A stretch of 60,067 nt of DNA, from the IMG/VR virus record IMGVR_UViG_3300012950_000003, positions 1 through 60,067 of that record; one strand, written 5' to 3'. The translations under genes and the position numbers were made by a program. This DNA is from a virus (lineage: Duplodnaviria; Caudoviricetes). Under the pieces are notes generated by a model, which was given only the letters and a program-made list of their open reading frames with translations, searched no databases and had not been told where the DNA came from. This document shows, piece after piece, positions 19,792 through 23,917 of this stretch (its first letter is position 1; each line of letters starts with the position of its first letter).

Positions 19792-20609
19792 TAGTTAGTC
19801 CTTTCGGCCAAGATTGCCATTTCGTCTATCACTTGCTGAATTTGTGGGGCGAATATACGGTTGAAGATACGTTGCAAATCCAAACTGCTACGGGCCATTC
19901 GTTGATAAGGGTATTTCTTATCTTGGAAATTCTGAGTGAAAGCCTGATGTAGTCGGTGTAGACTATACCCGTCATAGGTGAACTCTTCGTGCTTTGGCAC
20001 CCAATACTGGTGTTCCACGTTGGGAATAGCGGTATTGGCGATCACTTTCGCTCGGCTAGCTTCCATGATGATATGGTCGACCAGAATTTGGTGTTGGCTG
20101 TCAGTGTTTTCACTGTCGAGGGTGACCCGTTTGTAAGCGATGTGCATCTGTTCCTGATGCTTAACATACTGACCAATCTTGGTTACGGCATCACCTAACA
20201 AGTAGGGTAGTCGTGACATGATATGTTTGGTATGTTGGGTTTTATAAACTACCTCGCCGGTGATACAAGAGTTCAAGCAAACGGTTTGGATCTTACCAGC
20301 GGCCATTTTGGTAGCACTGGATTTGTCGTTAGAGTTGAAGAAGGTAACAGCGTTGTTGAAATCATCGTCCAGTTGGCTTTCAAACTGGTAGATGCCGAGC
20401 GCGCGCATATGATTATCAGTCATATGGAATTGGCTGTCTGTGATAGTGTGGCCCAATTCTTCGATTAGGGTTACTGTCTGCTGGTGCATGACTGAATGCG
20501 GTAAGGGCTTGAAATAACCGTCCGGATCGTAAGCCGGCAATTGGGCTTGGAACAGTTGCTCCAGCTCGACCCGTTGCTGGTTGCCGCTGTAAATGTTGAT
20601 TGATTTCAT
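19791..20609 (-). CDS. DUF932-like protein
   Basis: PLPH, NSNDKSS...AG...VCLN...HTK motif pattern. Confidence 0.7.
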   Translation of the reverse strand: MKSINIYSGNQQRVELEQLFQAQLPAYDPDGYFKPLPHSVMHQQTVTLIEELGHTITDSQFHMTDNHMRALGIYQFESQLDDDFNNAVTFFNSNDKSSATKMAAGKIQTVCLNSCITGEVVYKTQHTKHIMSRLPYLLGDAVTKIGQYVKHQEQMHIAYKRVTLDSENTDSQHQILVDHIIMEASRAKVIANTAIPNVEHQYWVPKHEEFTYDGYSLHRLHQAFTQNFQDKKYPYQRMARSSLDLQRIFNRIFAPQIQQVIDEMAILAERTN

Positions 20610-20836
20610 GGGGTCAAATCTCCTTGGCCTTTGGCTTGTTCAAAAGAACTCTGTTTCCAGTTTTCAGTCCAGTCTTTGAATAGTTGATAAGCTAACTTAC
20701 GGCTCAGTCCAAAAGTGTCTTGCAACACCTTTGGCGCACCGTACATATTTATACTCCCACCGGCTTGTAATCGGTAGAGGAACCTGTAGGTGGTCTCTCG
20801 CTCCTTGGGTCGTCCGAATTCTGTTTCAATCTCCAT
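20606..20836 (-). CDS. Small helical phage protein
   Basis: AAGGAGA RBS supports start MEIETE; LxRLxxxGxxNMYGA motif. Confidence 0.65.
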   Translation of the reverse strand: MEIETEFGRPKERETTYRFLYRLQAGGSINMYGAPKVLQDTFGLSRKLAYQLFKDWTENWKQSSFEQAKGQGDLTP

Positions 20837-20865
20837 TTTTATCTCCTTGTTCATAATCTTAAATT

Positions 20866-20928
20866 GTGGTTGCCCACGACCCCGTGAGGGGTTTCGGCCA
20901 GTTACCATCTGGCACTCGTTCAGGCGGG
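20866..20928 (-). ncRNA. Type I hammerhead ribozyme-like RNA (variant core)
   Basis: CCCGC-CUGAACGA-GUGCCAG-AUGGUAA-CUGGCC-GAAA-CCCC-UCAC-GGGG-UC-GUGGG-CAACCA: three stems, GAAA and GUC site, loop II pseudoknot partner. Confidence 0.75.
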
Positions 20929-21222
20929 AGTCAAACTGGTATCAAGAACCAGATCGTCACCATTAAACTCCCAAACCAAATCGGTTCCGGACTTTCTTAC
21001 GAACCAGTCAAAATCTTTCTGCCACAAGATATATGGCAGATTAAACTCTTGGAATGCCTGATTGATCCGCCGCTTAGTGGTGACCGTGAAATAGCCGTTT
21101 GTTCGTAGGGTGATGGTATGCTTGTCCAAATTTAAGTTGAAAATCTCGGTGTCGTACAAACTGACAGCGATGCCGTTGTCAGTGCTATAGACTTTGGTCT
21201 TCTTCTTCTTTCGTAGTTCCAT
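20920..21222 (-). CDS. Hypothetical protein
   Basis: AGGAGAC RBS; stop codon lies in the hammerhead CUGA. Confidence 0.7.
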   Translation of the reverse strand: MELRKKKKTKVYSTDNGIAVSLYDTEIFNLNLDKHTITLRTNGYFTVTTKRRINQAFQEFNLPYILWQKDFDWFVRKSGTDLVWEFNGDDLVLDTSLTPA

Positions 21223-22126: not shown

Positions 22127-22621
22127 TTATCCTAACCGGCTTTGCTGTTGTTGCTCTTTGACCGAATCGCTTCCGAAAGTGTCTCTGATCTTGTTCATGT
22201 CCCACGACCCTTTGGATCGACTTCGGTACTGTTTTGGTTTCCAGTACCACATCAATTTCTTTGAGTGCCACCTGTAACTGGATTTCTTGAGTGCATCCTT
22301 ACAAGGTTTGGTGTTGCCACTGACCCATATATAAATGCCGCAGACCTCTATATTAAGGTTGAGGTGTACGATCTCGTTAATGGCATCCATGAACATTTGC
22401 TCACCGGCCCATGTAGCGGTTTCAGCCCACTTACGTTCAAACCCGTTATCGCTGGAGGCCGCTTTGGTCTTCCATGCAAACCAGCCCATCTCGTATTGAG
22501 TGTTGACCTCTTGCATTACCTCTTTATTCCCACCTTTGTCCGGGTGGTGGATAATAGCTAAGGTTTTGTAACGCTTCTTGAAATCCTCTAAACTTTCGCA
22601 TCCTTGGAAATAGTTGTTCAT
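22127..22621 (-). CDS. J-domain (DnaJ-like) protein
   Basis: KKRYKTLAIIHHPDKGG...MQEVNTQY with HPD motif. Confidence 0.85.
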   Translation of the reverse strand: MNNYFQGCESLEDFKKRYKTLAIIHHPDKGGNKEVMQEVNTQYEMGWFAWKTKAASSDNGFERKWAETATWAGEQMFMDAINEIVHLNLNIEVCGIYIWVSGNTKPCKDALKKSSYRWHSKKLMWYWKPKQYRSRSKGSWDMNKIRDTFGSDSVKEQQQQSRLG

Positions 22622-23008: not shown

Positions 23009-23917
23009 TTATAGTGCCAACTCGTTTAATTGGTCGGCCATCTCTATCATTAAGTGGCAATCAACTAACCTATCCAACCATCTTTGGGGGATACCCGACA
23101 TACCGTAATGGGCACCGGCTATCTGTCCGTAAACGGCTCCCACCGTATCGCTGTCATCGCCTAAATTGGCTACTTTCAATGCACCTTCCTCGAAACTGTC
23201 GGTGCTGAAAAATCCCCACAAGGCGGCTCTGAGTGTGTCGACTACATACCCACTTGACTCTATATCAAGTTCGTTGGTTTCGGCTAACCAGTAATGCCAA
23301 TCCGGGTCGTCTCCTAACCCATAATCTCTCAACTCGTTAGTCGGATAATCTTCCCCGTTAATGGCTTTGTATAAACATCGTCCTAACTGCTGACTGGCTG
23401 TCAAACAAGTTGGGTGGGCGTGGGTTAGTTTGGATTGCATCTGACTTAATGCTGAGGCTTGGTCTAAAGTCTTGGCCGCAATAGCCGCTGGTGCTAACCT
23501 CATTATTGAACCGTTGGCTTGGGTGAACTCGCCGTTATTCTCTTTGACCTCACCTGTCATCTTAAAATGGTGTAGGCTATCAGCGGTGGTCGTGCCGATG
23601 TCGAAACAGTAGCCTTTGACGCTGAACTTGCCGTTATCCGACCAGTCGATCCATCTCTGCATAACGTCCTGTTGGTCGAACCCTTGTTTCAGTATCAATG
23701 ATTCGGCTAAACAAAGTGCCATGCTGGTGTCGTCTGTCCATTCACCCGCTTTCAACTTAAAAGGGCCACCGCCAACCATATCGACAATCTCCTCGAAATG
23801 ACCTCTAACTTTGAATTCGTTAGTAGTGCCAACGGCATCACCAACGGCTAATCCAACTAATGCGCCTCGGGCGCGATCTCTCTTTTCTTTATTGGCTTGT
23901 AGTCTCATTACCTTCAT
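23009..23917 (-). CDS. ADP-ribosylglycohydrolase (DraG/ARH family)
   Basis: GLAVGDAVG, WTDDTSM, DIGTTT, NGSIMR, GDDSDTVGAVYGQIAGA motifs. Confidence 0.95.
   Translation of the reverse strand: MKVMRLQANKEKRDRARGALVGLAVGDAVGTTNEFKVRGHFEEIVDMVGGGPFKLKAGEWTDDTSMALCLAESLILKQGFDQQDVMQRWIDWSDNGKFSVKGYCFDIGTTTADSLHHFKMTGEVKENNGEFTQANGSIMRLAPAAIAAKTLDQASALSQMQSKLTHAHPTCLTASQQLGRCLYKAINGEDYPTNELRDYGLGDDPDWHYWLAETNELDIESSGYVVDTLRAALWGFFSTDSFEEGALKVANLGDDSDTVGAVYGQIAGAHYGMSGIPQRWLDRLVDCHLMIEMADQLNELAL

What the first reader, a model, noticed from the sequence alone, without database searches (positions are those of the whole stretch)
20866..20928. Variant type I hammerhead ribozyme between two early genes
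Seen on the minus (coding) strand: stem I CCCGC/GUGGG; core CUGAACGA; stem II G(U)GCCAG/CUGGCC; GAAA; stem III ACCCC/GGGGU; GUC cleavage triplet (C at 20878). Loop II UGGU can pair with ACCA just 3' of stem I, forming a pseudoknot. The UGA in the core is the stop codon of gene 20920-21222, and the cut would lie ~30 nt before the next RBS. It deviates from the canonical CUGANGA core by one extra nucleotide and has a bulged U in stem II, so standard models may miss it. Inference: self-processing of the early polycistronic mRNA.
Basis: partly seen in the sequence, partly recalled or inferred. Interest (0 to 1): 0.75.

Follow-up and report, generated by a model that had tools for sequence, protein, structure and literature searches.

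The report
Phage hammerhead ribozyme with extra core adenosine
Between two small genes of an uncultured marine phage lies a genuine member of a large, well-conserved family of self-cutting hammerhead RNAs; it carries one extra A in its catalytic core, a rare variant already noted in print, so it is a solid but largely ordinary finding whose cutting activity is still untested.

Summary
Minus strand 20928-20867 has every part of a type I hammerhead: stem I, 5' core, bulged stem II, GAA, stem III, GUC with C17 at 20878, and a loop II/3'-tail pseudoknot. The core UGA is the stop codon of gene 20920-21222.

- **Family membership.** An 80%-identical relative of that gene (L001) carries the same element with a canonical CUGAUGA core. 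All 50 paired or core positions are identical and 8 of 13 unpaired positions differ.
- **Wider family.** Pattern scans found more than 100 distinct relatives in viral contigs, with covarying stems and pseudoknot.
- **Independent score.** A covariance model built only from canonical members scores the window at 64.7 bits, E 4e-16.
- **Rfam.** Rfam 15 misses the window. At its gathering thresholds it also reported none of the type I copies in 13 family loci searched, L001's canonical copy included.
- **The extra base.** It is an A after A6 (CUGAAYGA). It recurs in at least 7 lineages and was the only 5'-core deviation seen.
- **Prior knowledge.** Perreault et al. 2011 already reported an 'A6a' insertion with low in vitro activity.

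The likely function is cleavage of the operon mRNA 41 nt before the next start codon. Cleavage was not tested, and no RNA data were available.

The parts
20924..20928 (-). Stem I, 5' strand (CCCGC)
   Evidence: Pairs with 20873-20877. The stem I columns covary across 104 family members (helix 1, 98.7% paired).
20916..20923 (-). 5' catalytic core CUGA-A-C-GA (C3 U4 G5 A6, extra A at 20919, C7 at 20918, G8 A9). UGA 20922-20920 is also the stop codon of the upstream gene.
   Evidence: L001 has CUGAUGA at the same place. cmsearch places the extra base as an insert after CUGA.
20896..20915 (-). Stem II with bulged U 20914 and 7-nt loop II (20902-20908). UGGU 20904-20907 is the 5' half of the pseudoknot.
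   Evidence: Helix 2 is 97.6% paired, with double changes at 5 of 6 pairs.
20893..20895 (-). Core G12 A13 A14
   Evidence: The two A positions are invariant and the G is at least 90% conserved in alignment A3.
20879..20892 (-). Stem III (A15.1 to U16.1, 5 pairs) with a 4-nt loop
   Evidence: Helix 4 is 97.1% paired, and A15.1-U16.1 is present in 104 of 104.
20878..20878 (-). C17. The predicted cut is between 20878 and 20877.
   Evidence: Its position follows from the hammerhead consensus. Cleavage itself is inferred, not observed.
20873..20877 (-). Stem I, 3' strand (GUGGG). It would be the 5'-OH end of the downstream RNA.
20867..20870 (-). ACCA, the 3' half of the pseudoknot with loop II
   Evidence: The pseudoknot is 93.7% paired. 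It has 25 double-change cells against 2.9 +/- 1.4 in shuffles, with 0 of 500 shuffles reaching the observed value. The tail was never part of my selection.
20837..20866 (-). Leader of the downstream gene, with AAGGAG at 20843-20848
   Evidence: The stretch from the tail to the Shine-Dalgarno sequence aligns with L001 although the gene behind it differs.
20920..21222 (-). Upstream gene, 100 aa, Kyano_Gp96 family (PF23790), unknown function
   Evidence: E 1.8e-08; phrog_554.
20606..20836 (-). Downstream small ORF, 76 aa from ATG 20836, with no family match

Best explanation
This is a genuine type I hammerhead self-cleaving ribozyme. It belongs to a large phage-borne subfamily with a 5-6 bp stem I, a 6-bp stem II that often has a one-base bulge after G10.1, and a 4-bp pseudoknot between loop II and the tail just 3' of stem I.

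The window's copy carries one extra adenosine after A6 (CUGAACGA).

Inferred mechanism: the RNA is transcribed as part of the minus-strand operon and folds into the three-way junction, with the pseudoknot docking stems I and II. It cuts between C20878 and G20877 by internal transesterification.
- The upstream Gp96-like mRNA would end in a 2',3'-cyclic phosphate behind two stable hairpins.
- The downstream mRNA would start with a 5'-OH, 29 nt before its Shine-Dalgarno sequence and 41 nt before ATG 20836.
- This would uncouple the stability and expression of neighbouring genes.

What is shown: the anatomy, the homology, the covariation and the purifying selection. What is inferred: the cleavage itself, its rate given the extra A, and the effect on expression.
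For: 1. All parts are at the stated coordinates, and chance expectation is about 0.

2. The 80%-identical gene relative L001, with 5 identical loci, has the same element with a canonical core. Between window and L001, 50 of 50 paired, core or pseudoknot positions are identical, while 8 of 13 unpaired positions differ (Fisher p 3e-7). Third-codon-position identity in the adjoining gene is only 0.695.

3. Scans of viral contigs gave 19 and 105 stretches. My descriptor found 109 distinct type I hammerheads at 145 places.

4. On 104 aligned members, 97.0% of cells are paired and 414 cells have double changes, against 105 +/- 13 in shuffles. The pseudoknot, which was not used for selection, shows 25 double-change cells against 2.9 +/- 1.4, with 0 of 500 shuffles reaching that.

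5. Model R2 was built from 97 canonical members, without the window or any extra-A copy. It scores the window at 64.7 bits, E 4.3e-16.

6. The extra A is tolerated.
- Among 131 distinct cmsearch hits in 100 loci, the 5' core was intact in 127, and the other 4 all had an A inserted after A6. No other deviation was seen in that core strand.
- In a scan allowing any two bases at N7, the 6 of 14 stretches that are real hammerheads all read CUGAAUGA, and the other 8 lack the stems.
- The nearest neighbours of 5 of 7 type I extra-A copies are canonical.
- A Chloroflexota MAG contig holds an extra-A copy 300 nt from a canonical paralogue.

7. The position is typical of the family. Of 114 members with distinct context, 32 use the core UGA as the stop of an ORF of at least 60 codons. 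In 106 of them a Shine-Dalgarno sequence plus start codon follows within 150 nt, at a median of 32 nt from the cut.

8. Perreault et al. 2011 (PMC3088659; passages and section 8 read) showed that prophage hammerheads flanking genes cleave in vitro and in E. coli, and that such pseudoknots are needed for fast cleavage.
Against: - No cleavage data exist for this RNA.
- Perreault et al. 2011 report low activity for their natural A6a insertion and argue that it should disturb the A6-N7 phosphate contact with U4. This copy may therefore cut slowly or not at all.
- Rfam gives no hammerhead hit, even at E <= 10.
- Folding energy is not better than that of shuffles.
- With flanks included, the minimum-energy fold is not the hammerhead. 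In the 86-nt fold, upstream coding sequence pairs with the 3' strand of stem II. In the 63-nt fold, the extra A, C7 and G8 pair across the cleavage site.
- Stems I-III of the family alignment were pre-selected for pairing by my descriptor, so their pairing percentage is partly circular.
- A 79%-identical relative of the gene (L004, L005) has no hammerhead at all, so the element is dispensable for the gene.
Confidence: 0.72

Rival explanations
1. It is a crippled hammerhead. The A insertion has abolished useful self-cleavage, and the element persists only because the change is recent, or because the hairpins serve another role such as a 3' stabiliser of the upstream mRNA or a spacer before the next ribosome-binding site.
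For: Low activity was reported for a natural A6a insertion (PMC3088659, section 8). Competing folds involve the inserted bases. Close relatives do without the element.
Against: There are 0 changes in 50 constrained positions against L001, although 8 of 13 free positions and about 30% of third codon positions differ. The same insertion appears in at least 7 otherwise intact lineages. No other 5'-core defect occurs among 131 distinct hits, which is not what random decay would give.
Confidence: 0.22
2. It is not a ribozyme at all. Two GC-rich hairpins, such as a terminator or a protein-binding site, resemble a hammerhead by chance.
For: There is no Rfam hit, and the folding z-score is not significant.
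Against: 0 of 300 simulated windows match. The window scores 64.7 bits against a model built from other sequences. The relative L001 has a canonical core. No terminator-like site is reported at this place.
Confidence: 0.02
3. It is a tuned or conditional variant. The extra A slows cleavage so that the cut depends on a condition such as Mg2+, or on whether a ribosome terminating at the core UGA keeps the ribozyme unfolded.
For: The same insertion recurs. The stop codon lies inside the core here, in L001 and in 32 of 114 family members. Salt-dependent core-insertion variants are described in PMC3088659.
Against: There is no direct evidence. Recurrence may only mean that the change is nearly neutral. 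Canonical members also overlap stop codons, so the overlap is not specific to the variant.
Confidence: 0.2

Closest known systems
Pseudoknot-stabilised hammerhead ribozymes of bacteria, prophages and phages (Perreault et al. 2011, PMC3088659)
   Same: It shares the three-way junction and the conserved core, and its pseudoknot links the stem I side to the stem II side. Like them it sits in phage intergenic spacers flanking single genes, and several copies often occur per contig.
   Different: The window's copy has an extra A after A6. The specific type I subfamily seen here was not matched to a named set in that paper; it has a bulged stem II, a loop II of the NUGGUAA kind and a tail of the AAACCA kind. 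The paper's figures and supplements could not be seen.
Natural 'A6a' core-insertion hammerhead variant (Perreault et al. 2011, section 8 and Figure 5)
   Same: One base is inserted after A6 in an otherwise consensus core.
   Different: The paper reports it as a rare variant with low activity. Here it recurs in at least 7 lineages and makes up 4 of 57 distinct members found with the same descriptor. Whether the published example belongs to this subfamily is unknown, because the figure and supplement are not held.
Rfam Hammerhead_1 (RF00163) and clan CL00010 models, and RAGATH-1 hammerhead (RF03152)
   Same: It has the same catalytic core and the same type I topology. For L001, RF03152 and RF02275 align the core correctly.
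   Different: Scores are far below the gathering thresholds: 14.5 against 56.3 bits, and 12.8 against 52 bits. The window itself gives no hammerhead hit.
Engineered ribozyme insulators placed before a ribosome-binding site
   Same: A hammerhead placed just upstream of an RBS cuts away the upstream RNA and leaves a short, defined 5'-OH leader.
   Different: Those are synthetic devices derived from a plant satellite RNA. This one is natural and sits inside an operon.

Membership tests
Hammerhead ribozyme (type I) | Three helices around a junction, with stem I open and stems II and III closed by loops | tested here: met
   Sequence reading. The minimum-energy fold of the 56-nt element is exactly this junction.
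Hammerhead ribozyme (type I) | Conserved core bases C3 U4 G5 A6, G8 A9, G12 A13 A14, the A15.1-U16.1 pair, and H17 | tested here: met
   All are present at 20923-20920, 20917-20916, 20895-20893, 20892/20879 and 20878.
Hammerhead ribozyme (type I) | Exact core spacing CUGANGA, with a single N7 | tested here: not met
   Two bases (A, C) lie between A6 and G8. The same deviation is a published natural variant (PMC3088659) and recurs in the family.
Hammerhead ribozyme (type I) | Score above the curated Rfam gathering threshold | tested here: not met
   There were 0 hits in the window at gathering thresholds and no hammerhead hit at E <= 10. At the gathering thresholds, 13 family loci with canonical cores gave no type I hit either; L001's canonical copy reached only 12.8-14.5 bits in the E-value search.
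Hammerhead ribozyme (type I) | Stems supported by covariation in relatives | tested here: met
   17 of 19 pairs show double changes and 97.0% of cells are paired. Caveat: stems I-III were pre-selected for pairing. The pseudoknot was not, and it covaries.
Hammerhead ribozyme (type I) | Site-specific self-cleavage after position 17, giving a 2',3'-cyclic phosphate and a 5'-OH | not testable with these tools
   No listed holder of this stretch is on record as RNA. A bench assay is needed.
Phage type I pseudoknot hammerhead subfamily (defined here by models R1 and R2) | Significant score against a covariance model built without the query | tested here: met
   R2 gives 64.7 bits, E 4.3e-16.
Phage type I pseudoknot hammerhead subfamily (defined here by models R1 and R2) | Loop II pairs with the 4 bases that start 2-3 nt after stem I | tested here: met
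   UGGU 20907-20904 pairs with ACCA 20870-20867.

The most novel reading that the evidence does not exclude
CUGAAYGA may be a maintained second core form of phage hammerheads rather than a defect. It arose repeatedly from canonical neighbours, it is the only 5'-core deviation seen, and it may set a slower or conditional cleavage rate. One possibility is that cleavage is gated by ribosomes terminating at the stop codon that lies inside the core, which would couple mRNA processing to translation of the upstream gene.
Probability: 0.2. Interest if true: 0.55.

Novelty: new member of a known kind. Interest (0 to 1): 0.33.

Why it matters
It adds a well-supported example to the phage hammerheads whose biological role is still unsettled. 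It also offers a natural matched pair for measuring what the extra A does: the window's copy with the extra A, and L001 with a canonical core and identical stems.

Two side results are of practical use:
- Rfam 15 reported none of the type I copies of this abundant subfamily in the 13 loci tested at its thresholds.
- In about a quarter of the members examined (32 of 114), the stop codon of the upstream gene lies inside the ribozyme core.

Neither result changes the picture drawn in 2011 that phage operon transcripts are cut into gene-length pieces.

Tried and rejected
- **Rfam.** Searches of the window and of L001 gave no hammerhead hit for the window and only sub-threshold hits for L001.
- **BLAST against cultured phages.** A 1.2-kb query gave no match. 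The 73-nt element gave one 26-nt partial match to a Rhizobium phage at E 0.2, which I regard as chance.
- **Relatives of the downstream 76-aa ORF.** None were found in viral contigs.
- **Link to the Gp96-like gene.** This was rejected. In 77 of the 80 loci (L007-L009, duplicates of L006, were left out), only L006 holds this subfamily. L025 holds two AU-rich hammerheads of another kind, and L012 and L019 gave only E 0.059.
- **Other hammerheads in the window.** None were found with my descriptors for types I, II and III or with cmsearch with filters off (the next best hit is 12.4 bits, E 0.34).
- **Promoter and terminator scan.** It gave nothing at the element, and site counts were close to those of shuffles.
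- **RNA evidence.** No RNA holder was listed.
- **Literature on the variant.** Searches for 'hammerhead' with 'A6a', for the 8-letter variant motif and for inserted-nucleotide wording found nothing beyond PMC3088659.
- **Supplements and figures.** Those of PMC3088659 could not be seen. They may show which organism carries the published A6a variant and how fast it cuts.
- **Possible type III copies.** L087 and L094 look like type III hammerheads with the same stem II and the extra A, but they have only 3-4 stem III pairs. I read them by eye and they score low with R1 and R2. They count as tentative.
- **Complex prediction, structure prediction and atlas tools.** These were not relevant and were not used.

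Full report
**What is there.**
On the minus strand the window reads, in order:
- stem I 5' strand, 20928-20924
- the core run CUGA, two bases, GA, 20923-20916
- stem II with a bulged U and a 7-nt loop, 20915-20896
- GAA, 20895-20893
- stem III with a 4-nt loop, 20892-20879
- C17 at 20878
- stem I 3' strand, 20877-20873

Loop II UGGU (20907-20904) is complementary to ACCA (20870-20867). UGA 20922-20920 ends the 100-aa ORF 20920-21222. AAGGAG lies at 20848-20843 and ATG at 20836.

The 83-nt gap that holds the element is the only sizeable spacer in a run of minus-strand ORFs whose stops and starts otherwise touch or overlap. The window is a complete 60-kb virus record.

**Is it more than chance?**
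- My descriptor finds exactly one match in the window. In 300 first-order Markov simulations there were none with stems of 5/6/5 pairs, and 0.047 per window at loose 4/3/3 thresholds.
- Folding energy alone is not informative. z is -0.79 for 86 nt, -0.55 for 63 nt and -0.88 for the 56-nt core, although the 56-nt core does fold into the expected junction.
- Rfam gives nothing: 0 hits at gathering thresholds for the whole window, and no hammerhead hit at E <= 10 for 20800-21000.

**The closest relative.**
The upstream protein belongs to Pfam Kyano_Gp96. One viral contig (L001) encodes an 80%-identical protein. Directly after that gene it has the same element with a canonical CUGAUGA core. Five further loci carry the identical element.

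Window and L001 agree at all 50 paired, core and pseudoknot positions. They differ at 8 of 13 unpaired positions (Fisher p 3e-7). The adjoining gene is 69.5% identical at third codon positions. That is the signature of selection on the hammerhead fold.

The leader down to the Shine-Dalgarno sequence also aligns. The gene behind it differs: the window has an extra 76-aa ORF before the DUF932 gene. A 79%-identical relative of the gene (L004, L005) has no hammerhead, and its gene runs into the next one. The element is therefore a gained or lost cassette.

**The family.**
- A pattern fixing the core and stem II gave 19 viral stretches. A pattern fixing the core, the loop II motif and CGAAAC gave 105.
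- My descriptor then found 109 distinct type I hammerheads at 145 places, often several per contig, for example seven in L118.
- On 104 aligned members (A3), 97.0% of cells are standard pairs. 17 of 19 pairs show changes on both sides, in 414 cells against 105 +/- 13 in shuffles. Sliding the partner by 1-3 columns drops pairing to 26-39%.
- The stems were pre-selected for pairing, so that part is partly circular. The 3' tail was never selected, yet the pseudoknot is 93.7% paired, with 25 double-change cells against 2.9 +/- 1.4 in shuffles; 0 of 500 shuffles reached that.
- A model built from the 97 canonical members only (A4, R2) scores the window at 64.7 bits, E 4.3e-16. Model R1, which included the window, gave 68.7 bits and no second copy in the window.

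**The extra base.**
- cmsearch over 100 loci (865 kb) gave 156 hits, of which 131 are distinct. N7 is U in 70, C in 46, A in 11 and G in none. The only departure from CUGANGA is an A inserted after A6, in 4 of them. Three of those four came from a scan that allowed two bases there.
- A scan allowing any two bases at N7 in the loop-II-defined subfamily gave 14 stretches. Six are full hammerheads (4 distinct), and all read CUGAAUGA. The other eight have other dinucleotides and no stems.
- With one descriptor, the count is 53 distinct canonical members against 4 distinct extra-A members.
- Five of the seven type I extra-A copies have a canonical nearest neighbour.
- A Chloroflexota MAG contig holds an extra-A copy 300 nt from a near-identical canonical paralogue.

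So the insertion arose several times, and it is the only 5'-core defect seen. That argues for tolerance rather than decay.

It is not new. Perreault et al. 2011 (PMC3088659, section 8, read whole) describe a natural insertion after A6, 'A6a', with low activity, and explain why it should hurt. My searches found no later paper on it.

**Context and likely function.**
- Among 114 members with distinct context and enough flank, 32 use the core UGA as the stop of an ORF of at least 60 codons. Another 33 have that stop 8-9 nt upstream.
- In 106 of the 114, a Shine-Dalgarno sequence plus start codon follows within 150 nt, at a median of 32 nt after the cut. The window's 41 nt fits this.
- Perreault et al. 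(passages read) showed that prophage hammerheads flanking genes cleave in vitro and in E. coli, and proposed that long phage transcripts are cut into gene-length mRNAs. They also showed that pseudoknot mutations cost one to two orders of magnitude in rate.
- By inference the window's element does the same. The upstream RNA would end behind two stable hairpins with a cyclic phosphate, and the downstream RNA would begin with a 5'-OH just before its ribosome-binding site.
- The effect on stability or translation, and any interplay with ribosomes stopping inside the core, is speculation.

**What could not be done.**
- No listed holder of this stretch is on record as RNA.
- The figures and supplements of the 2011 paper were not available.

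**Rfam.**
At gathering thresholds, 13 family loci gave no type I hit; each of them holds at least one R1 hit or, for L001, the element identical to L006's. Only two type II hits were found, both in L137. The library's models therefore miss this subfamily as a whole, not just the variant.

**Verdict.**
This is a real hammerhead: a new member of a known kind, carrying a known rare core variant that turns out to be recurrent. Its activity is untested.

Noticed in passing
L138, L134, L137, L127, L129, L086, L089, L118, L096, L172, L001, L204, L209: At gathering thresholds, Rfam 15 reports none of the type I pseudoknot hammerheads that models R1 and R2 find in these loci. It finds only two type II hammerheads, at L137 2526-2589 and 2939-3003.
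   Followed up: partly
L118 2776-7854; L096 3491-7871; L172 6304-10798; L196 2731-7186: These contigs carry four to eight hammerheads of this subfamily within a few kilobases, apparently one per gene junction.
   Followed up: partly
114 family members in loci L001-L214: In 32 of 114 members the UGA of the catalytic core is the stop codon of an upstream ORF of at least 60 codons. In 33 more the stop lies 8-9 nt upstream, so terminating ribosomes would cover the ribozyme.
   Followed up: partly
L219 599-630 and 901-931: A Chloroflexota MAG contig has two near-identical hammerheads 300 nt apart, one with the extra A and one canonical. Their pseudoknot covaries to GCC/GGC.
   Followed up: partly
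L087 172-234; L094 2101-2190: These two elements have the same stem II and the extra A, but stem I is closed by a loop and stem III is open with only 3-4 pairs. They look like type III versions of the same variant.
   Followed up: partly
L025 553-617 and 1204-1267; L042 around 1300-1370: Two AU-rich type I hammerheads lie next to a distant Gp96-like gene, and a type II candidate lies in another such locus.
   Followed up: no
window 20852-20854: A second ATG lies 18 nt upstream of ATG 20836, in frame and without a Shine-Dalgarno sequence. L001 has an in-frame ATG at the matching place in the conserved leader. This may be coincidence.
   Followed up: no
window 22127-22621 and 23009-23917: The first is an ORF with an HPD motif like a J-domain (seen by eye; it matches phrog_15863, of unknown function). 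The second is an ADP-ribosylglycohydrolase (phrog_6572, E 9e-72). Both are upstream in the same minus-strand block.
   Followed up: no
L004 1249-1585: A 79%-identical relative of the Gp96-like gene shares the window's upstream junction sequence. It lacks the hammerhead and has a different downstream gene, which points to cassette-like mosaicism at this junction.
   Followed up: partly
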